The notes beneath the pieces were generated by a model that was given only the letters and a program-made list of their open reading frames with translations, had not been told where the DNA came from and did not search any database. The position numbers and the translations under genes are program-made. From a virus, in IMG/VR virus record IMGVR_UViG_3300014325_000010, positions 1-33,129 of that record: a stretch of DNA of 33,129 nucleotides. One strand, written 5' to 3'. Each line of letters opens with the position of its first letter. The first letter of the stretch is position 1. Below are positions 14,499-22,545 of this stretch, piece by piece.

Positions 14499-14909
14499 TT
14501 GAGTTGGCCTGTCGGAAAAAGACACACACCAGAAGCTAGAGCAAAAATTTCAAATGCGGCACGGCAACAGTGGCAAGATCCAGTAATAAGAAAGAAACAT
14601 GTAGATGGACTGTCATACGCAATGATGAACGAGACACGTCCAGGTGCTATTGGTCAGCCACAAACACAAATAATGTTAGATTTTGCTAAAGTTCTTTGTC
14701 CTGCTGGTTATCTAATGGATGAAATTAGAATACCATTACAAAATAAAGTGGGAGGTTGTTACAGATTAGACTTTGCTCATCCAGAAGCAAAAGTCAATAT
14801 AGAGATTGATGGTGAAATACACACGCGTCCTTATCGGCGCAGAAATGATGAACTTCGTGATGAGCATTTACGAAGTCTCGGGTGGAAAGTTATTCGGATA
14901 AGAATGTAG
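14499..14909 (+). CDS. NUMOD3-like plus DUF559/Vsr-like endonuclease-domain protein. TTG start directly after an in-frame TAG.
   Basis: GKRHTPEARAKISNAARQQW is NUMOD3-like. LDFAHPEAKVNIEIDGEIH is the nuclease core. Confidence 0.5.
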   Translation: MSWPVGKRHTPEARAKISNAARQQWQDPVIRKKHVDGLSYAMMNETRPGAIGQPQTQIMLDFAKVLCPAGYLMDEIRIPLQNKVGGCYRLDFAHPEAKVNIEIDGEIHTRPYRRRNDELRDEHLRSLGWKVIRIRM

Positions 14910-15253: not shown

Positions 15254-15290
15254 ATTGACAAGTGGGTGATCCCTGCAAAGGGATCACCCA
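15254..15290 (+). terminator. Rho-independent terminator
   Basis: GGGTGATCCC tgcaaa GGGATCACCC followed by ATTCTTGTTAT. Sits 17 nt after the spoVG-like stop. Confidence 0.6.
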
Positions 15291-15313
15291 TTCTTGTTAT
15301 AGGATGGTTCTAC

Positions 15314-15892
15314 ATGGAATGGAAATCAGTTAAACGCCCTGGATTCTTTGGGCGAAATCGTGATATCATCGTTGACCAATACAATATAAGCTATGGCGTG
15401 GATAAGTGGCGTCTTGTGTGGGTTACACTCACACAAACACTTACCTTCAAAGAAGCCTGCATTCAATTCTATGAACAATCCTATTTAGAATATCTTAGAG
15501 ACAATCAGGATATTTTGAATTGGATTTGTTCATTTGGCGAAGTTATTGATAATGCGCCGAGCAATATTTCGAGTGGATTCGATTACGAGAAACAAGAATC
15601 CTACTCGACACATATACAGGATATTGCTATTCGAAATGTGCTTCGTATCTTGGGTCGGAAATTTAACGGAGGTCCAAATTACATCCTAACTGTTCGTGGA
15701 TTAAATTCCAATGGCCATCACTTAAATCCTGGTCAAATACCATTCTACGACCACAATCTTATTACACAACCCTCCAAAGCACCTTATTGGGCTTTAAAAA
15801 ATTCTGTAGAAGATTTTTGGCAATCTAATAAGTGGCTCCAAGTGTTGGAAGATTCATCCCAGAAAAATCTTCCATATACGGACGGTAAATAG
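15314..15892 (+). CDS. Hypothetical protein. Start moved to ATG 15314 after AGGA; the track's GTG 15266 start lies inside the terminator hairpin.
   Basis: MEWKSVKRPGFFGRNRDIIVDQYNISYG... No recognised domain. Confidence 0.5.
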   Translation: MEWKSVKRPGFFGRNRDIIVDQYNISYGVDKWRLVWVTLTQTLTFKEACIQFYEQSYLEYLRDNQDILNWICSFGEVIDNAPSNISSGFDYEKQESYSTHIQDIAIRNVLRILGRKFNGGPNYILTVRGLNSNGHHLNPGQIPFYDHNLITQPSKAPYWALKNSVEDFWQSNKWLQVLEDSSQKNLPYTDGK

Positions 15893-15906
15893 ATTTACGT
15901 TTGACG

Positions 15907-15935
15907 TTTACTTCCAAAGCGGTACGCGGTAAAAT
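15907..15935 (+). promoter_or_regulatory. Sigma70-like promoter candidate: TTTACT, 17-nt spacer, TAAAAT
   Basis: Third copy of the TTTACTTC -35-like octamer. Nearby direct repeats: ACGTTT at 15897, 15904 and 15951; GTACGCGGTA twice at 15922 and 15942. Confidence 0.3.
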
Positions 15936-15992
15936 AAAAGTACGCGGTAGTACGTTTAGCCGCTTACGGTATTTTCACAATCAAGTTTCGCC

Positions 15993-16071
15993 GGCTGCAC
16001 CCTTTTTCATACGGGTCCTGTTGCGGATCATTCGAACGTGCGGGTGCAGCTTCTGCTTGCAGCACGTTCGA
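15993..16071 (+). ncRNA. GC-rich structured leader element with two interleaved perfect stems (pseudoknot-capable)
   Basis: Stem A: GCTGCACCC (15994-16002) pairs with GGGTGCAGC (16042-16050). Stem B: TCGAACGTGC (16032-41) pairs with GCACGTTCGA (16062-71). The order A5'-B5'-A3'-B3' gives H-type pseudoknot topology. Confidence 0.35.
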
Positions 16072-16176
16072 GCCACCTGAGTCGGGGCACCAGTCAGCAG
16101 CAACATGTGATGGACTTCATTAAGTTGGAAAGAGTGACTGGTCGGTAGCACGTGGTGGGGCGATGTTACCTAGGAG

Positions 16177-16206
16177 CCGATGGAAGCGTTCATTTGCTTC
16201 CATCGG
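16177..16206 (+). promoter_or_regulatory. Perfect 11-bp hairpin sequestering the ATG (16180) of the small ORF. The SD AGGAG lies just upstream.
   Basis: CCGATGGAAGC gttcattt GCTTCCATCGG. AGGAG at 16172-76. Confidence 0.4.
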
Positions 16207-16407
16207 AAACTTACTATGTTAATGAGAATTCGGTTTCAAAAACTTGGTGGGCATTACCATTGCCGAGTCTTCACTCGAAAATTGCCGCATACTACTTGGG
16301 AAAAATGTGGTGATCTAACATTTCGTGAAAACGAGTGGAGAGACGTTCTATCACTAATGTCTCACTTAGATATAGAGTTTCTTGAAGAAGACACAGAAAA
16401 CAGCTAG
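16180..16407 (+). CDS. Small Cys/His-containing protein (75 aa). Its start codon is embedded in the hairpin.
   Basis: Good SD spacing. ...GGHYHCRVF...WEKCGD. Confidence 0.3.
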   Translation: MEAFICFHRKLTMLMRIRFQKLGGHYHCRVFTRKLPHTTWEKCGDLTFRENEWRDVLSLMSHLDIEFLEEDTENS

Positions 16408-16434
16408 ACACCATGAATCTTAATCTTACGAAGG

Positions 16435-17943
16435 TTGTCAATGGCTCAAATTTCAGGGGTCTGTGATTTTTGTAACGACCCAAATCCAATTAAACACATA
16501 CGAGTTCCAGTTTTTGATGGTGCAGATTTTGCAGCACTCTTTAGCAATACCAGCCCCACGGCTTGGGCAGCATGTAAAACTTGTCACGCCATGTTTATGG
16601 CTACTGACAAGGATGGCTTGCTACAACGTGCAATTGAAGCAGCACGAGGCACTGCTAACTTTGCTGTACAGCCAATTATTGATCTTCACTACGAATTCTG
16701 GAGAACGATTAATTCGGTAGCAGAAGCTGGTGGTATTGCTAGTGCGCTAATCGATTTTATCGACGGCAAAATCAATAAGAAAGGTTACACTGCACGAGCT
16801 GCTTCTCGCGAAGAACGCATTCTCTCTGTAAGACAGCTTACTGGATTGGATGATAAAGAATTCCTTCGTATGATGAAGGGAGATCTTTATTACGGAAAGA
16901 TTGTCCAAAAACTGGTTGATTGGCACAAAAAGTTTGGTACAAACTACGACGCTCTACAATTTAATCTTCCTCAAAATCCACTGCTGAAAAGCCACGTCCC
17001 ACACTGGCAGACTGCCCTCGAAAAGAAATTTGAACTACTAAAGTTTCTAACAAAGATTACATCTTCAGATGCTAAAAATCGCCCACATGGTGATTACGCA
17101 GATGTCTTCATATCATATCAATATGATGTGCAAGTATTGAAATTGGCCGAAGTGTACAGTTTTAATCTCGAAACCATTACAGCCATTACCGAATCAGGAA
17201 AAAGATTACCTCATGACAGTCCGCTGACCTCCGTAGATATTCCAGGAAATGGCCAAGGTTGGTTTTGGTTCGAGAAGCCTCTTCCTATTCAAACGAACAA
17301 ATATTCTGATACAGTATCAGGACTATTGTGGGGTTTGATTGGAACCGCTGAAGCAAAAAATCTTGCTGTACGATTTACAGCATTTGCTTGTGTACAAAGT
17401 GATAATCAAATATGGCCGTCAACTGAATGGCATTGGCCAGTACATTATTCATTTCATGACATGATTACTTATTCGAGGATTAGGCATGATGAAATGTACG
17501 GTCCCGGTGGCAAATATGAAAAAGTTGATAAGTTTGACACAGAAGGAACATTGCGAGCGATTGCCGAATTAAGCCAGTTCTTTCTTATGTCTTGTGTTTG
17601 GTTCAAACAAGAAATTATCCTCAAAGAACCTACTAATGTTGAACGAGCTGCTCGTCGGCGAATTCAACATGAAAATAAACTCAGTGAACCACCAACAGTT
17701 CGAGTGATTGCTTTGCGTAAGAGTCATCGAGATGTTGAGATGAAAGATAGCTCCAAGGAACAGACAGAGTCTGAAAAGACTCGGGTCTATAGTTGCCGTT
17801 GGAGAGTAATCGGCCACCCTCGACTCCAACCGTGTGGCCCACAAAATAAAGAGAGAAAATTGATTTGGATTTCGGAATACGAAGCTGGACCACCCGATAA
17901 ACCTCTGCGTGAAAAACAACGTGTCTACGCAGTTGTGAGGTAA
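16435..17943 (+). CDS. Large hypothetical protein (502 aa) with an N-terminal Cys4 zinc finger
   Basis: CDFCNDP...CKTCH. No other recognised motifs. Confidence 0.6.
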   Translation: MSMAQISGVCDFCNDPNPIKHIRVPVFDGADFAALFSNTSPTAWAACKTCHAMFMATDKDGLLQRAIEAARGTANFAVQPIIDLHYEFWRTINSVAEAGGIASALIDFIDGKINKKGYTARAASREERILSVRQLTGLDDKEFLRMMKGDLYYGKIVQKLVDWHKKFGTNYDALQFNLPQNPLLKSHVPHWQTALEKKFELLKFLTKITSSDAKNRPHGDYADVFISYQYDVQVLKLAEVYSFNLETITAITESGKRLPHDSPLTSVDIPGNGQGWFWFEKPLPIQTNKYSDTVSGLLWGLIGTAEAKNLAVRFTAFACVQSDNQIWPSTEWHWPVHYSFHDMITYSRIRHDEMYGPGGKYEKVDKFDTEGTLRAIAELSQFFLMSCVWFKQEIILKEPTNVERAARRRIQHENKLSEPPTVRVIALRKSHRDVEMKDSSKEQTESEKTRVYSCRWRVIGHPRLQPCGPQNKERKLIWISEYEAGPPDKPLREKQRVYAVVR

Positions 17944-18312: not shown

Positions 18313-18518
18313 AACTTAGAGATCAAATGGATGCACTACGAATTCATCATATTGTGGTACATCGACTAGAACTCGAAAATGGAACACTGGGTATCGATAT
18401 TAGTTATTTTTTCGATGACAATCCTAAACTTTCTTATTCAGTCCGCGAATTTAATAGGAACAGTAAAATACGAAGGGCTCTCGAATTAATCGAAACGCAC
18501 CTTCGAAAGGACGTATAA
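18309..18518 (+). CDS. Hypothetical small protein
   Basis: ORF, ATGA overlaps on both sides. Confidence 0.4.
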   Translation: MKLRDQMDALRIHHIVVHRLELENGTLGIDISYFFDDNPKLSYSVREFNRNSKIRRALELIETHLRKDV

Positions 18519-19471
18519 TGGCTAAGACGACTGTTGGCGCGGTAGTAGGTCGGTTCCAAGTGCCCGAACTTACACAAGGACATCGCGATCTACTCAACGC
18601 GGTCATGGAACGATCAGATCGTTTAGTCATCCTTTTGGGTGTGTCGCCACTCGACGGAAAAGTAAAAGAAAATCCACTGACATTTGATCAACGAACTTCG
18701 TTGTTCCGTGATTACGGACACGCAACAATTCTTCCCGTGTTTGACCAGCCAAATGACAAACTGTGGTCTACCGCTCTTGATAGACTACTCAACGATTTGT
18801 TTCTTGGTTCGGAAATCACATTATTTGGTGGGCGTGATTCCTTTACAACTTCGTACATGGGCCAATTTGGTACGGAGATACTATCATTTCATGCGAGTGC
18901 AACGGTGCAAGGCACAAAGATGAGAAACGCGATTAAGGAATCTCGCGAACCGGAATTTCTTCGAGGGCAAATCTACAGTCTGGTAAACCAATACCCAAAA
19001 ACTTTTCCAACCGTTGATATTGTCGTAATCAAAGACACAGAGTTACTACTTATTCAACGAGCCGATACAAGCGAATGGACCCTACCAGGTGGCTTTGTAG
19101 ATCCAACCGATAGATCGCTTGAACTTGCTGCCAAACGCGAATTATATGAAGAACTTGGTATCTTGAGCGACGAAAATATGGTGTATGTTGGTTCGACGGT
19201 AATCAATGATTGGCGTTATCGATCATGTCGTGATAAAATCATGACGTCGTTGTTCGTTATTGAACCAACAATTGAATCTATTACTCCAAATCCGCTCGAA
19301 GTACAAGATTACAAATGGGTGAAATTGCTTGTGGCATTAGAGGTAATTGCGCCACACCATATACCCTTGATTCGTATGCTTATCACTAGGCACCTGAAAC
19401 TATTTGTCAGGGAAAACGAACTTGACCAAACTGGGAAGATTACTTCGGACACACGTATTCTTCGAGGGTAA
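18518..19471 (+). CDS. nadM: Bifunctional NMN adenylyltransferase (NadM-type) / Nudix hydrolase
   Basis: N-terminal GRFQVPELTQGH carries the (H/T)xGH nucleotidyltransferase motif. C-terminal Nudix box LPGGFVDPTDRSLELAAKRELYEELGI. Confidence 0.75.
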   Translation: MAKTTVGAVVGRFQVPELTQGHRDLLNAVMERSDRLVILLGVSPLDGKVKENPLTFDQRTSLFRDYGHATILPVFDQPNDKLWSTALDRLLNDLFLGSEITLFGGRDSFTTSYMGQFGTEILSFHASATVQGTKMRNAIKESREPEFLRGQIYSLVNQYPKTFPTVDIVVIKDTELLLIQRADTSEWTLPGGFVDPTDRSLELAAKRELYEELGILSDENMVYVGSTVINDWRYRSCRDKIMTSLFVIEPTIESITPNPLEVQDYKWVKLLVALEVIAPHHIPLIRMLITRHLKLFVRENELDQTGKITSDTRILRG

Positions 19472-20901
19472 TGATGCGAAATATTGCGAAACGAACTGAC
19501 GGATACAAACCAAGTCACTGGCTTTTCATGGAGCCAGGTATTCAAGACACATGGGATTACCTTGAAAGTCGTGGCGGCGTTTACGGTGACATGACCGTTT
19601 TCGGCTTGCAAGGTCACGCCTACAAATATCTGTGTGGTCGAGTGATTACACCCGAACAGGTGGAGCAAGCCAATCGATTCTATGCTCGTTACTATGGGAT
19701 GACGGGTGTGTTCAATTACCACGGGTGGATGCGAATAGCTACGACTCTCGAAGGTCGACTTCCTCTCGAATTGTACGCATTACCAGAAGGTCTGCAAGTA
19801 CCAGTACGAACGCCATTGTATCAATACCACGTCACTGACCCCGATTCATGGTGGTTACCAGGCTATTCCGAACCGTTGATGTTCAAACCGTGGTATCCAT
19901 CTACGACTTCAACCATCAGTCAGCACTGTAAGCGGGTGTTGTGGGACGGTCTCAAAGAAAGTGGTACTGAGGCTGACATCGCCTGGAAATTGCATGACTT
20001 CGGTTATCGAGGAGTGTCTTCAGAAGAATCTGCCGAAATTGGTGGAGCGGCGCATCTTGTTCACTTCAAAGGAACCGACACCATACCCGCTATCGACTAC
20101 ATTAACGAATTCTATGGTGATGGGCAAGTGGACGCCTATGGCGACCCAACCTATATGCCAGGATTTAGCGTTCGAGCAACCGAACACAGCGTGATGACTC
20201 ACCGTGGTCGGAAATTGGAGCTCGAAGTCGTTCGACGAATTTTGCAAGTTTGTCCTACCGGAATCATCGCTATGGTAGGCGATTCGTACGACATCTTTAA
20301 TTTTGCCGATCAAATTTTGGGCGTTGATCTGCACGCCGAAGTAGTTGGACGTGATGGACTCGTGGTTGTCAGACCAGATTCTGGTGACCCAGTTCCAACC
20401 ATGATGAAACTACTTTGGATTCTAGGCGAACGGTTTGGTTGGACAATGAATTCCAAGAAATTCAAAGTTCTCAACCATGTCCGTACGCTCCAAGGCGACA
20501 AGAACAATTACGACGCCATTTACAAGATGGTTCGAGCAGTTATCGGTGCTGGCTGGAGTCTCGATAACATTGCTACTTTCGGTATGGGTGGTGGATTACT
20601 CCAGGATTCTGATCGGGACACACAGAAAATGAAAATCGCATTGTCGTCACTCACGGACAAAGATGGTAATTGGCGCGACGTGAACAAAGACCCAATCACC
20701 GATCCTGGTAAGTTCAGCCGTCCTGGGCGATTCGCGGTGGTCTTCGAAGATGGCAGAATCGTTACAAAAGCACTGAAGCAGGGTGAGCCTCGACCGGCTG
20801 GTGATATGTTCGAACTGGTATATCGTAACGGCGAATGGCTCAAGCATACGACATTTGAAACAATTCGTGAACGGGCTGACCGTTGGATGAAGTTAGCATA
20901 A
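19471..20901 (+). CDS. nadV: Nicotinamide phosphoribosyltransferase (Nampt/NadV)
   Basis: 476 aa. ...DFGYRGVSS...GGAAHLVHFKGTDT...RATEHSVMT...GDSYDI... is typical of the Nampt family. ATGA overlap with nadM. Confidence 0.85.
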   Translation: MMRNIAKRTDGYKPSHWLFMEPGIQDTWDYLESRGGVYGDMTVFGLQGHAYKYLCGRVITPEQVEQANRFYARYYGMTGVFNYHGWMRIATTLEGRLPLELYALPEGLQVPVRTPLYQYHVTDPDSWWLPGYSEPLMFKPWYPSTTSTISQHCKRVLWDGLKESGTEADIAWKLHDFGYRGVSSEESAEIGGAAHLVHFKGTDTIPAIDYINEFYGDGQVDAYGDPTYMPGFSVRATEHSVMTHRGRKLELEVVRRILQVCPTGIIAMVGDSYDIFNFADQILGVDLHAEVVGRDGLVVVRPDSGDPVPTMMKLLWILGERFGWTMNSKKFKVLNHVRTLQGDKNNYDAIYKMVRAVIGAGWSLDNIATFGMGGGLLQDSDRDTQKMKIALSSLTDKDGNWRDVNKDPITDPGKFSRPGRFAVVFEDGRIVTKALKQGEPRPAGDMFELVYRNGEWLKHTTFETIRERADRWMKLA

Positions 20902-21473: not shown

Positions 21474-21560
21474 GCCGGGGTGGCGTAATTGGCAGCCGCA
21501 CTGGGCTTAAGACTCAGTGACCTACGGGTCGTGCGGGTTCGACTCCCGCTCCCGGCACCA
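21474..21560 (+). tRNA. tRNA-Leu (anticodon UAA), type II with a long variable arm. CCA is encoded.
   Basis: Folded by eye. Acceptor GCCGGGG/TCCCGGC. Anticodon stem CTGGG/CTCAG with loop CTTAAGA. Variable-arm stem GACC/GGTC. T-arm GCGGG-TTCGACT-CCCGC. 87 nt. Confidence 0.8.
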
Positions 21561-21642
21561 TTTATAAAGGAGGTGACTCATGAAGTAGTGTCCACTTCGT
21601 ATGTCCTCTGAATCACTGTGAGTTTATTTCTGGAGAATTGAA

Positions 21643-22107
21643 ATGACAAGTGCAGCCGCCAATATGACACGTATCAACAGCAAGCAGTTCAACGTCGCCT
21701 TCGTGTTCTGCCCGTCGCCGATTACCATCGACAAGCGGAAGGATTGGGCCGGCGCGGATGGCCAACAAGACGAGAGCAACCTGCAGAAAGCGCCAAACGG
21801 CGCGTTCCTCAAGATGAGCTCGCCGACAGAGGTCTCGCACCTTGTGCAGCCCAACGCGGACCGAACCGCGCCCGAAGGTTGGGTACCCGGTGACGGCCCT
21901 GGGTTATTCACAAAGAGCCCGATTTGGGTGACTGGCGTCGAAATCCCAGCAGGAACACCGACTGAGGTCTACACGCTGGATGGAGGGATAACGTACACCT
22001 TCGACGAACCGGCCATGTTGTGCTACAACGGCGATGAGAACGGCCCCAACTACAACGACGGTTGGGTCCAAACGATGAAAAATCTCCGAAAGAACTACCA
22101 CATCTAG
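21643..22107 (+). CDS. Hypothetical protein (154 aa) in a GC-rich island, likely horizontally acquired
   Basis: GGAG RBS. GC3-rich codon usage (AGC, TTC, AAC, GTC, GCC, CCG) unlike the rest of the window. No recognised domain. Confidence 0.55.
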   Translation: MTSAAANMTRINSKQFNVAFVFCPSPITIDKRKDWAGADGQQDESNLQKAPNGAFLKMSSPTEVSHLVQPNADRTAPEGWVPGDGPGLFTKSPIWVTGVEIPAGTPTEVYTLDGGITYTFDEPAMLCYNGDENGPNYNDGWVQTMKNLRKNYHI

Positions 22108-22123
22108 GACGATAGGAGCGATT

Positions 22124-22204
22124 ATGAAGTACCTCGTAGCATGCAGTTTCATTGCGGCGATGATCGTTGCGGGCTTCGTACTCGCATACCTCGAAGTCAG
22201 GTAG
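22124..22204 (+). CDS. Possible 26-aa hydrophobic mini-peptide (MKYLVACSFIAAMIVAGFVLAYLEVR)
   Basis: GGAG upstream, GC-rich, single TM-like segment. Could be spurious. Confidence 0.2.
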   Translation: MKYLVACSFIAAMIVAGFVLAYLEVR

Positions 22205-22210
22205 CGTCTA

Positions 22211-22242
22211 GGACCCTGGTCGCGGGCGGCGCGACCGGGTCC
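22211..22242 (+). promoter_or_regulatory. GC-rich 13-bp hairpin with one bulge
   Basis: GGACCCTGGTCGCG ggcg GCGCGACCGGGTCC. More GC-rich palindromic segments follow at 22329-22379 (CCTTTAGCC...GGCTAAAGG). Confidence 0.4.
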
Positions 22243-22395
22243 AACCGTTAGACCGGCGATTCCGGCCGATAGGTTTATTTACGGGCCACCAGTCGAGGCT
22301 GGGGCTGGATAAAAGTTTAAGGTAATACTAGCGCCTTTAGCCTAGATAGACCGCCTTGGCGGGCGCTGGTGGCTAAAGGACTCCAAATCGTGAAA

Positions 22396-22545
22396 ATGTC
22401 GTTTCAGGACAGAGCTTGTATTAAATGTGGGACTATCGTTCGTTCTTATCATGGTTTTGCTTTCTGTAAACGATGCAATCGTTGGGTGTGTGTTTCTAGA
22501 CGAGCTTTACGAAAACAAAAACAGTCATCAACAAAGATAAAATAA
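22396..22545 (+). CDS. Zinc-ribbon protein (49 aa)
   Basis: MSFQDRACIKCGTIVRSYHGFAFCKRCNRWVC... TAATG overlap with the next ORF. Confidence 0.35.
   Translation: MSFQDRACIKCGTIVRSYHGFAFCKRCNRWVCVSRRALRKQKQSSTKIK

What the first reader, a model, noticed from the sequence alone, without database searches (positions are those of the whole stretch)
15893..16434. Long GC-rich structured leader with pseudoknot-capable stems and a hairpin-sequestered start codon
Between the gene ending at 15892 and the 502-aa gene at 16435 lies about 540 nt with almost no convincing coding capacity, but dense structure. There is a promoter-like TTTACT-N17-TAAAAT (15907-15935). Direct repeats follow (ACGTTT three times; GTACGCGGTA twice). 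Two perfect interleaved stems of 9 and 10 bp (15994-16002 with 16042-16050; 16032-16041 with 16062-16071) have H-type pseudoknot topology, and another 8-bp stem (CCAGTCA/TGACTGG) follows. Finally a perfect 11-bp hairpin (16177-16206) buries the ATG of a 75-aa ORF whose SD (AGGAG) sits just upstream. This looks like a cis-regulatory RNA (riboswitch, thermosensor or protein-binding leader) or a stand-alone structured ncRNA, in a genome whose other intergenic regions are short and AT-rich.
Basis: seen in the sequence. Interest (0 to 1): 0.65.

Follow-up and report, generated by a model that had tools for sequence, protein, structure and literature searches.

The report
New pseudoknotted leader RNA in phages
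The GC-rich stretch is a real, previously uncatalogued folded RNA of about 180 nt, conserved with many compensatory base changes in five related uncultured phages. It always sits directly in front of the same small gene, so it is most likely a regulatory leader, but what it senses or binds is unknown.

Summary
Window 15993-16170 (+ strand) encodes a structured RNA core. It has an H-type pseudoknot (S1 10 bp, S2 10 bp, no linker between them), a small hairpin S1b in loop 1, a hairpin S3 capped by S3a, and a hairpin S4 with an almost invariant 13-nt loop, CGUGGUGGGGCGA.

I found four further copies in related uncultured phages: L003, L240, L241 and L004. Across the five sequences, 96.7% of pair cells are standard pairs, and 24 of 43 pairs show compensatory double changes, against 1-4 in slid controls.

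No Rfam family, tRNA or tmRNA matches.

In all five phages the RNA is followed on the same strand by a conserved small ORF of about 60 aa (KLGGHxHCR motif; window 16216-16407). This link holds even in L004, where the module sits 2 kb away. The small-protein family is large (880 cluster representatives), and no RNA was found at any of the seven other homolog loci I examined.

The 11-bp hairpin S5 (16177-16206) is real and covaries, but it is optional: two of five members lack it. The ATG it buries (16180) is not a conserved start codon. The conserved start is ATG 16216.

Best reading: a new cis-acting 5' leader or translational operator, possibly a riboswitch. The ligand and mechanism are unknown.

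The parts
15907..15935 (+). Promoter-like site: TTTACT, 17-nt spacer, TAAAAT. Probable start of the leader transcript.
   Evidence: Found by the consensus scan, but not above chance on its own. The -10 box (TAAAAT or TATAAT) and the spacer motif TTCCAA..GCGG are conserved at the same distance, about 57 nt before S1, in L003, L240 and L241 but not in L004 (alignment A8).
15944..15963 (+). S0: a small GC-rich hairpin (GCGGU / GCCGC) between the promoter and the core. Tentative.
   Evidence: Present in the MFE fold. Relatives have a GC hairpin with a UA(C/A)UA-type loop at the same place but with different stem sequences (read by eye from A8). I did not test this formally.
15993..16051 (+). S1: a 10-bp helix, 15993-16002 with 16042-16051. 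It is the first stem of the H-type pseudoknot and encloses S1b.
   Evidence: 98% of cells paired across five sequences, and 5 of 10 pairs show compensatory changes (helix 1). RNAalifold recovers it independently.
16014..16029 (+). S1b: a 5-bp hairpin (GGUCC / GGAUC) with loop UGUUGC, lying in pseudoknot loop 1.
   Evidence: 100% of cells paired, and 4 of 5 pairs have compensatory changes (helix 2).
16032..16071 (+). S2: a 10-bp helix, 16032-16041 with 16062-16071. It is the second pseudoknot stem. Its 5' arm abuts the 3' arm of S1 with no linker.
   Evidence: A perfect inverted repeat (I5). 89.6% of cells paired, with 2 compensatory pairs and G.U variants in L004. In L003 the lower half is shifted by one register, which I read by eye as preserving pairing. 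By my reading of the L241 sequence, S2 is 11 bp there.
16052..16061 (+). L3: pseudoknot loop 3, a variable site.
   Evidence: 10 nt in the window, about 8 nt in L241 and 10-11 nt in L004. It is replaced by an inserted hairpin domain of about 54 nt in L003 and about 70 nt in L240.
16072..16088 (+). J2/3: the conserved single-stranded junction, with ACCU .. CGGGGC invariant.
   Evidence: Invariant columns in the 5-sequence alignments.
16089..16142 (+). S3: an 8-bp helix (16089-16096 with 16135-16142) capped by S3a (16097-16099 with 16106-16108, loop GCAACA). It has a 3' internal loop containing GAUGG and AAAGAG.
   Evidence: S3 has 7 of 8 pairs with compensatory changes. S3a has 2 of 3 (helices 4 and 5).
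16144..16170 (+). S4: a 7-bp hairpin (GGUAGCA / UGUUACC) with the 13-nt loop CGUGGUGGGGCGA. The loop may itself form 3 more pairs, presenting GGUGG(G).
   Evidence: 100% of cells paired and 4 of 7 pairs compensatory (helix 6). The loop is identical in 3 of 5 members and one G shorter in 2. The 3-bp extension is predicted by RNAalifold, but those positions never vary, so it is untested.
16171..16176 (+). UAGGAG(C): a Shine-Dalgarno-like linker between S4 and S5.
   Evidence: Conserved as CUAGGRGCC in the three S5-bearing members (window, L003, L240). Absent in L241 and L004.
16177..16206 (+). S5: a perfect 11-bp accessory hairpin (CCGAUGGAAGC / GCUUCCAUCGG).
   Evidence: I4. All 11 aligned pairs are kept in L003 (14 bp) and L240 (15 bp), with compensatory changes at 5 positions. 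Absent in L241 and L004, where the sequence reads ...ACC|AUCG.... There is no U-tract, so it is not an intrinsic terminator.
16216..16407 (+). Conserved small ORF of 63 aa (MLMRIRFQKLGGHYHCRVF...), the gene always linked to the RNA.
   Evidence: Homologs lie directly downstream of the RNA in L003 (4750-4956), L240 (8257-8436), L241 (from ATG 2356) and L004 (3275-3490). The AlphaFold2 model has pLDDT 88.

Best explanation
Window 15993-16170 is the conserved, ligand- or factor-binding domain of a new cis-acting 5' leader RNA. Transcription probably starts just after the TAAAAT box (15930-15935). The transcript folds into a compact pseudoknotted core (S1/S2 stacked coaxially, then S3 and S4) that ends 11-15 nt, in folded distance, before the start codon of the first downstream ORF. 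The core therefore sits on the ribosome landing site of the small KLGGHxHCR gene and controls its translation initiation, and by coupling or read-through that of the genes behind it, here the AcrVA2-like gene. S5 with its UAGGAG is an optional insert that adds a Shine-Dalgarno-like element next to the start codon. It is not the switch.

Shown: the fold, its conservation, its strand, and its fixed position before the ORF. Inferred: that it acts in cis on translation. Unknown: what binds it (metabolite, protein, ribosome or tRNA).
For: 1. Structure under selection. 43 pairs, 96.7% of cells paired, 24 pairs with compensatory changes, 0 of 500 shuffles as good, and slid controls give 1-4. RNAalifold recovers five of the helices independently.

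2. Strand. There are 15 G.U cells. Pairing is 96.7% on the + strand and 91.5% if read as the - strand. The + strand is also the strand of all flanking genes.

3. Position. In 5 of 5 phages an ORF begins right after the RNA. In L241 and L004, S4 is followed by exactly 11 nt (AUCGAAAAACU / AUCGUUUACCU) and then AUG. In the window, L003 and L240, S4 is followed by UAGGRG, then S5, then 6-10 nt ((GG)AAACUUA..), then AUG.

4. Linkage survives rearrangement. In L004 the RNA plus small-ORF module lies upstream of the 190-aa gene rather than downstream of it, yet the two stay together.

5. Asymmetry typical of cis-regulators. The small-protein family has 880 representatives. No RNA was found at any of the seven other homolog loci examined: the covariance model gave no hit and the genes are tightly packed. 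The RNA, in contrast, was never found without the gene.

6. A conserved core with variable periphery (the L3 insert, the distal part of S3, an optional S5) and invariant junctions and loops is the usual anatomy of aptamer or operator domains.

7. A conserved -10 box lies upstream in 4 of 5 members, and there is no terminator between the RNA and the ORF.
Against: - No conserved alternative pairing (anti-sequestrator or anti-terminator) was found, so there is no evidence that it switches.
- There are no transcript or ligand data.
- The regulated gene has no known function, so no ligand can be guessed.
- In L004 the ORF that directly follows the RNA is a different, unannotated 81-aa ORF. The small ORF comes 220 nt later with its own GGAG.
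- L004 has no recognisable promoter. The RNA starts 5 nt after the upstream stop codon.
- There are only five sequences, all from one narrow phage clade.
- The single-sequence fold of L241 is not better than shuffles (z = -0.61).
Confidence: 0.5

Rival explanations
1. It is a stand-alone, trans-acting ncRNA gene with its own promoter, with S5 or S4 as the 3'-terminal protective hairpin. Its neighbour is the small ORF. It could be a partner of that small protein (an RNP), or an RNA decoy or inhibitor of a host factor, within what looks like an anti-defence gene cluster (AcrVA2-like, NAMPT, NUDIX).
For: It is GC-rich (0.55-0.63) in a phage of about 40% GC. The loops are near-invariant between phages whose proteins are only 47-59% identical. 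There is a conserved -10 box upstream. Type A members have a very stable terminal hairpin, S5. It lies next to an AcrVA2-like gene in the window and L003, and near NAD-salvage genes in all loci.
Against: S5 has no U-tract and is missing in 2 of 5 members. In those two, the RNA runs straight into a start codon 11 nt later. The small protein occurs widely without the RNA, so an obligate RNP is unlikely. The AcrVA2-like gene is absent next to the RNA in L240 and is 2 kb away in L004.
Confidence: 0.25
2. It is an RNA stability or processing element. It could be a compact 5' structure that protects the downstream mRNA from 5'-end-dependent RNases, or a self-cleaving ribozyme that creates the mRNA 5' end just before the ORF.
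For: It lies at the 5' end of the message, as a tight pseudoknot plus hairpins ending just before the ORF. Phages are rich in small ribozymes and 5' stabilisers (general knowledge). The spacing to the AUG is fixed.
Against: No ribozyme family matches, even at E <= 5-10, for three members. The helix order (S1 5' arm, S1b, S2 5' arm, S1 3' arm, L3, S2 3' arm) differs from the HDV-like nested double pseudoknot. A simple stabiliser would not need about 40 invariant unpaired nucleotides.
Confidence: 0.12
3. It is a DNA-level element (an origin, a packaging or recombination site, or a single-stranded DNA structure) rather than an RNA.
For: Inverted repeats and GC enrichment can also mark DNA sites. 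The module has moved within the genome in L004.
Against: Compensatory changes preserve pairing rather than sequence. The 15 G.U cells favour one strand. A pseudoknot with invariant loops is not a known feature of double-stranded DNA sites. Orientation and distance to the ORF are fixed.
Confidence: 0.03
4. It is protein-coding sequence (for example the 59-aa ORF at 15901-16080 or the 53-aa ORF at 16152-16313), or the stems are chance.
For: Short ORFs exist in the region.
Against: These ORFs are not conserved. Relatives differ by indels that are not multiples of 3 (43-nt and 11-nt differences). Substitutions are paired across stems. The small ORFs have no Pfam or PHROG hits. Shuffle and slide controls exclude chance.
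Confidence: 0.01

Closest known systems
Riboswitch aptamer domains built on an H-type pseudoknot (for example SAM-II/V, preQ1-II/III, c-di-GMP-II) with variable expression platforms
   Same: A 5'-leader position on the gene's strand. A conserved pseudoknotted core with invariant junction and loop nucleotides. Variable peripheral stems. An accessory hairpin next to the ribosome-binding site that differs between members.
   Different: No Rfam riboswitch model matches. The core is larger (about 180 nt, six helices). No ligand-related gene lies downstream. No alternative pairing has been detected. It is confined to one phage clade.
Protein-binding translational operators with pseudoknots (phage T4 gene 32 leader; E. 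coli rpsO/S15 and alpha-operon/S4 leaders)
   Same: A pseudoknot placed immediately 5' of a start codon, in phage or bacterial mRNAs. It would act by occluding or trapping the 30S subunit. This comparison rests on general knowledge, not on a test here.
   Different: Those operators are bound by the product of the regulated gene. Here the small protein is widespread without the RNA, which argues against obligate autoregulation. There is no sequence similarity.
Split ribosome-binding sites of phage T4 genes 38 and 25, where a hairpin brings a distant Shine-Dalgarno element close to the AUG
   Same: In the window, L003 and L240 the order is UAGGRG, then a stable covarying hairpin S5, then 6-10 nt, then AUG. 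This is the same layout.
   Different: It applies only to the optional S5 module, not to the conserved core. L241 and L004 have neither a Shine-Dalgarno element nor a hairpin.
Group I intron P3-P7 pseudoknot core, and the GIR1 lariat-capping ribozyme
   Same: The strand order (S1 5' arm, hairpin, S2 5' arm, S1 3' arm, optional hairpin, S2 3' arm) mimics P3-[P4-P6]-P7-P3'-P8-P7'. It lies just upstream of an ORF, and a homing-endonuclease-like gene is nearby (14499-14909).
   Different: No Intron_gpI hit at E <= 10. The 'P4-P6' equivalent is a 5-bp hairpin. The 'P8' equivalent is missing in 3 of 5 members. The flanking genes are complete, with no interrupted gene.
Orphan phage- or metagenome-associated structured RNA motifs catalogued in Rfam (manA, wcaG, PhotoRC, GOLLD, ROOL and others)
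   Same: A GC-rich, covariation-supported RNA of unknown function in uncultured phage genomes.
   Different: None of these models matches. This one is tied to a specific downstream small gene.

Membership tests
Any Rfam 15 family (4227 covariance models) | A score at or above the gathering threshold, or at least a suggestive E-value, for the region | tested here: not met
   In the window at gathering threshold, only the tRNA at 21474-21557 matched. For 15700-16600 at E <= 10, the only match was a spurious lncRNA hit outside the core. L003 and L004 at E <= 5 gave nothing at the RNA.
tRNA / tmRNA / tRNA-like | A cloverleaf or tRNA-like domain detectable by ARAGORN | tested here: not met
   ARAGORN finds only tRNA-Leu(TAA) at 21474-21560. 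The GUUCGAA in S2 is base-paired in a helix and does not form a T-loop.
Group I intron / GIR1-like ribozyme | A P3-P7 pseudoknot with P4-P6 and P8 domains, insertion in a host gene, and a match to the Intron_gpI model | tested here: not met
   No model hit. The reduced domains are described above. The upstream 192/208-aa gene and the downstream genes are intact in all relatives.
HDV-like self-cleaving ribozyme | A nested double pseudoknot with strand order P1-P2-P3-P3'-P1'-P4-P2' | tested here: not met
   The observed order is S1, S1b hairpin, S2, S1', L3, S2'. No Rfam HDV-type hit. Cleavage itself cannot be tested with these tools.
Intrinsic-terminator attenuator or riboswitch with a terminator platform | A GC-rich hairpin followed by a U-tract between the aptamer and the ORF | tested here: not met
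   S5 is followed by AAACUUACU. The terminator scan finds nothing at 16177-16215. S5 is absent in L241 and L004.
Riboswitch (generic definition) | A conserved aptamer in a 5' UTR | tested here: met
   A conserved core immediately upstream of an ORF in 5 of 5 members.
Riboswitch (generic definition) | Direct binding of a small ligand, with a ligand-dependent structural change | not testable with these tools
   This needs in-line probing or ITC. No conserved alternative pairing was seen by inspection.
Type III toxin-antitoxin (RNA antitoxin followed by a protein toxin) | Tandem direct repeats of the antitoxin RNA, a terminator, and then an endoribonuclease toxin gene | tested here: not met
   No tandem repeats in the core. 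No terminator. The small protein has no ToxN or AbiE-type match.
AcrVA2-like protein family (PF26125), for the neighbouring 500-aa gene | Sequence homology to proteins carrying PF26125 | tested here: inconclusive
   Homologs P0003, P0007, P0013 and others carry a precomputed PF26125 annotation. The window protein itself gave no Pfam hit at E <= 0.01. It is 48% identical to P0003.

The most novel reading that the evidence does not exclude
The core is the aptamer of a new riboswitch class, or a new RNA that binds the ribosome or another host factor directly. A clade of uncultured phages would use it to gate translation of an early or anti-defence gene cassette (the small KLGGHxHCR protein, followed in some members by an AcrVA2-like gene) in response to the state of the infected cell.
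Probability: 0.3. Interest if true: 0.8.

Novelty: new variant of a known kind. Interest (0 to 1): 0.62.

Why it matters
Structured RNAs with this much covariation from so few sequences are rare, and they have usually turned out to be riboswitches, ribozymes or RNP scaffolds.

This one is phage-specific and sits at the head of a small-gene cassette. That cassette lies beside an AcrVA2-like gene and NAD+-salvage genes (NAMPT, NUDIX), so it may reveal how phages time or condition expression of counter-defence genes at the RNA level.

It also supplies a defined, compact fold of about 180 nt (an H-type pseudoknot plus three hairpins with invariant loops). That fold is immediately usable for ligand screening, structure determination and wider homology searches. 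It gives a first functional handle on a widespread small phage protein family of unknown function (880 clusters).

Tried and rejected
- **Rfam scans.** Run at gathering and at permissive thresholds on three members: no family.
- **ARAGORN.** No tRNA or tmRNA in the region.
- **Cultured phages.** blastn of the locus and tblastn of the 192-aa protein found no relative. tblastn of the helicase found only distant matches, at most about 28% identity.
- **Exact-pattern scans.** Patterns were CCTNAGTCGGGGCAC, AGTCGGGGCAC..CGTGGTGGG, CGGGGCAC..CGTGGTGGG(N)CGA and CGGGGCNC..GCGTGGTGGG(N)CGAC. They were run on IMG/VR (three scans), JGI metagenomes (one) and GTDB genomes (one). Every locus I could test gave only chance hits, mostly in high-GC bacteria. 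None passed the covariance models or an S4-stem filter.
- **Leader of the AcrVA2-like gene.** Rejected. L240 has the RNA without that gene, and L004 has it 2 kb away.
- **3' element of the upstream 208-aa gene.** Rejected. In L004 the RNA follows a different gene.
- **Hairpin-buried ATG 16180 as the regulated start.** Rejected. See the observation check.
- **Function of the small protein.**
  - Pfam and PHROGs gave no hit, and Pfam on 10 longer fusion proteins found no domains.
- **Tertiary contacts.** I looked by eye for J2/3 ACC(U) pairing with the S4 loop GGU, L1 UCAU pairing with GAUGG, and alternative partners for the S5 arms. Nothing is conserved across all five, or the positions are invariant and so untestable.
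- **Recurrence of the promoter motif in the window.** None found.
- **Last contig look-up (P0035).** It returned no DNA.
Full report
**1. What is in the window**

The window is part of an uncultured phage genome.
- The genes have phage-type annotations: Pam3_Gp34-like, an SNF2 helicase, NUDIX, NAMPT and a DUF559/NUMOD3 endonuclease.
- blastn of the locus and tblastn of the 192-aa protein find no cultured relative. tblastn of the helicase finds only distant matches, at most about 28% identity.
- The same phage was found on a 161-kb contig.

The finding lies between two genes. The upstream gene encodes a conserved 192/208-aa protein and ends at 15892. The downstream gene encodes a 500-aa protein (ATG 16441-17943) whose homologs carry the Pfam annotation PF26125, AcrVA2-like.

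GC content is 0.52 at 15901-16200, against about 0.40 for the surroundings.

The 231-nt core plus S5 folds better than all 200 dinucleotide shuffles, with z = -3.85. Rfam has nothing here even at E <= 10, and ARAGORN finds only a tRNA-Leu 5 kb away.

**2. Relatives and covariation**

I found the relatives through the flanking proteins.

- L003 carries a 70%-identical copy of the AcrVA2-like protein and has a syntenic intergenic region that aligns at 78%. Seven helices drawn on the window sequence already showed 12 compensatory double substitutions in this single pairwise comparison, against 0-1 when the 3' partners were slid by 1-3 columns.
- A covariance model from these two sequences found a third copy in L004, at 83 bits and E = 4e-21.
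- A model from three sequences found two more copies, in contigs reached through the 192-aa protein family. These are L240 (147 bits) and L241 (127 bits).

On the five-sequence alignment, with the pseudoknot written explicitly, there are 43 pairs:
- 96.7% of cells are standard pairs.
- 24 pairs show compensatory changes, against 1-4 in slid controls.
- 0 of 500 shuffles reach the observed values.

RNAalifold independently recovers S1, S1b, S3, S3a and S4. There are fifteen G.U cells. Pairing is 96.7% on the + strand and 91.5% if read as the - strand, which puts the RNA on the + strand, the strand of all neighbouring genes.

**3. Anatomy, in window coordinates**

| Element | Coordinates | Description |
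|---|---|---|
| S1 | 15993-16002 with 16042-16051 | 10-bp helix |
| S1b | 16014-16018 with 16025-16029 | 5-bp hairpin inside the first pseudoknot loop |
| S2 | 16032-16041 with 16062-16071 | 10-bp helix; its 5' arm directly abuts the 3' arm of S1 (no linker) |
| L3 | 16052-16061 | 8-11 nt in three members; an inserted hairpin domain of 54-70 nt in L003 and L240 |
| J2/3 | 16072-16088 | conserved junction, ACCU..CGGGGC |
| S3 | 16089-16096 with 16135-16142 | 8-bp helix |
| S3a | 16097-16099 with 16106-16108 | 3-bp cap on S3, loop GCAACA |
| linker | 16143 | a single C |
| S4 | 16144-16150 with 16164-16170 | 7-bp hairpin |

- S1 and S2 together form a classical H-type pseudoknot that can stack coaxially.
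- The 13-nt loop of S4, CGUGGUGGGGCGA, is identical in three members and one G shorter in two. It may form 3 more pairs, leaving GGUGG(G) exposed. Those positions never vary, so this is untested.
- Upstream, a TAWAAT -10 box sits about 57 nt before S1 in four of the five members, followed by a small GC hairpin, S0. The promoter match in the window is not significant on its own.

**4. What lies downstream**

In all five phages the RNA is followed, on the same strand, by a homolog of one small protein of about 60 aa, with the motif (I/M)RIR..KLGGH(Y/I/F)HCR(V/L)F...G.L.F.E.EW. There are two architectures.

- **Type A (window, L003, L240):** S4, then CUAGGRGCC, then hairpin S5 (11, 14 and 15 bp), then (GG)AAACUUA.., then the AUG of the small ORF. 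S5 covaries at five positions.
- **Type B (L241, L004):** no Shine-Dalgarno element and no S5. S4 is followed by exactly 11 nt (AUCGAAAAACU or AUCGUUUACCU) and then an AUG. In L241 this AUG starts the small ORF itself. In L004 it starts an unannotated 81-aa ORF that overlaps the start of the small ORF by 23 nt.

Type B reads like type A with the segment from UAGGAG to ...UUCC deleted, leaving the junction ACC|AUCG. S5 is therefore an optional insert.

This disposes of the buried start codon:
- ATG 16180 is in frame only in the window.
- In L003 it opens a 15-codon out-of-frame ORF.
- In L240 the hairpin contains no ATG.
- The conserved start in the window is ATG 16216.

**5. The module is a unit**

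In the window, L003, L240 and L241 the RNA and small ORF lie just downstream of the 192-aa gene. In L004 they lie about 1 kb upstream of it, between different genes, and two unrelated small genes occupy the old site.

The AcrVA2-like gene follows the module in the window and L003. It is 2 kb away in L004 and absent from that position in L240. In L241 only a 98-aa N-terminal-like ORF is present. The RNA is therefore not the leader of the AcrVA2-like gene, and it is not a 3' element of the 192-aa gene.

The small protein is widespread:
- A profile search finds 880 cluster representatives.
- No RNA was found at the seven homolog loci I examined in other phages. The genes there are tightly packed and the model gives no hit.
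- More distant relatives of the 192-aa gene (50-59% identity: L237-L239, L242, L243) also lack the RNA.

So the RNA was always found with the gene, but the gene is usually found without the RNA. That is the usual signature of a lineage-specific cis-regulatory element.

**6. Mechanism**

*Shown:*
- a conserved pseudoknotted fold on the + strand
- invariant junctions and loops
- a variable periphery
- a fixed position ending 11 nt before a start codon, or a 6-nt Shine-Dalgarno element plus S5 plus 6-10 nt
- no terminator between the RNA and the ORF

*Inferred:* the RNA is the 5' leader of the small-ORF message and acts on translation initiation. The folded core sits within the 30S footprint. Binding of some factor, or the fold itself, would occlude or present the start region.

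In type A members the UAGGAG-hairpin-AUG layout resembles the split ribosome-binding sites of T4 genes 38 and 25. That comparison rests on general knowledge.

Shine-Dalgarno usage is weak across this phage. In a permissive motif scan, 19 of 41 ORF starts have an SD-like motif. A start without one, as in type B, is therefore not unusual.

I could not find conserved alternative pairings. The switch idea, and the nature of any ligand, remain open.

My estimated probabilities are:

| Explanation | Probability |
|---|---|
| cis-acting leader | 0.50 |
| stand-alone ncRNA or RNP partner | 0.25 |
| stabiliser or ribozyme | 0.12 |
| DNA-level element | 0.03 |
| coding sequence or chance | 0.01 |

**7. 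Comparison with known systems**

No Rfam family matches. It is not a tRNA or tmRNA.

It is not a group I intron or GIR1-type ribozyme, although the strand order resembles P3-P7. There is no model hit, the P4-P6 and P8 equivalents are vestigial or absent, and the flanking genes are intact.

It is not HDV-like, because the helix order differs. It is not a terminator attenuator, because there is no U-tract. It is not a type III toxin-antitoxin, because there are no repeats.

By analogy it works most like a pseudoknot-based riboswitch aptamer or a protein-binding translational operator. It cannot be filed under any named family.

**8. Limits**

- There are five sequences, all from one clade.
- There are no expression data.
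- The small protein has a confident AlphaFold2 model (pLDDT 88), but no informative structural or family match.

**9. Verdict**

This is a real and well-supported new structured RNA family in phages. It is most likely a cis-acting leader of a conserved small gene.

Its headline mechanism, the hairpin-sequestered start codon, is not supported.

Noticed in passing
window 16441-17943 (+): The 500-aa protein downstream of the module belongs to a family whose members carry Pfam PF26125, AcrVA2-like. AcrVA2 is an anti-CRISPR reported to trigger translation-dependent destruction of Cas12a mRNA (bioRxiv 10.1101/2022.11.29.518452). More distant homologs have an N-terminal extension of 45-200 aa that the window protein lacks.
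   Followed up: partly
window 18518-19471 and 19471-20901 (+): Adjacent genes encode a cytidylyltransferase-like plus NUDIX protein and a nicotinamide phosphoribosyltransferase (NAMPT). Together they form an NAD+ salvage pair conserved in all related loci. With the AcrVA2-like gene this suggests a counter-defence region.
   Followed up: no
window 14499-14909 (+): A NUMOD3 plus DUF559/Vsr-like homing-endonuclease-type gene. Its homolog sits at a different position in L003 (246-548), L240 has two such genes, and L004 has none in the stretch examined. It looks like a mobile endonuclease gene in a region that also shows gene rearrangement.
   Followed up: partly
window 15261-15292 (+): A perfect 14-bp GC-rich hairpin (AGTGGGTGATCCCT GCAA AGGGATCACCCATT) in the short gap before the probable start (ATG 15314) of the 192-aa gene. 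The scan flagged it as terminator-like, but its tail is only moderately T-rich.
   Followed up: no
window 21474-21560 (+); L003 10400-10482; L004 10200-10283: A tRNA-Leu(TAA) with a long variable arm in the window. A tRNA gene is also present downstream of the NAMPT gene in both related phages.
   Followed up: no
window 16216-16407; family-wide: The 63-aa protein (KLGGHYHCRVF motif, predicted beta-beta-beta-alpha-beta fold, pLDDT 88) belongs to a large uncharacterised family (880 representatives at E <= 1e-3). It sometimes occurs as a domain of longer proteins (up to 376 aa). It has no Pfam or PHROG annotation.
   Followed up: partly
window 16150-16159 and 16242-16251: The S4 loop sequence ACGTGGTGGG recurs as ACTTGGTGGG inside the small ORF, where it encodes K-L-G-G. 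The UGGUGG string is kept at that site in some relatives, because of the Gly-Gly codons. It may be coincidence.
   Followed up: no
L241 2784-3080 and 2483-2492: L241 has a 98-aa ORF that matches only the N-terminal part of the AcrVA2-like protein. Its copy of the small ORF is interrupted by a run of 10 N, an assembly gap.
   Followed up: no
L004 3052-3297: An 81-aa ORF (MDKTLEEFKDFLLNNPKW...) that the source gene caller did not call. It starts 11 nt after the RNA and overlaps the start of the small ORF. It has no homolog among the proteins compared from the window or L003.
   Followed up: partly
window 21600-22500: A second locally GC-rich stretch (0.52-0.57, against about 0.40) just downstream of the tRNA gene. 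I did not examine it.
   Followed up: no
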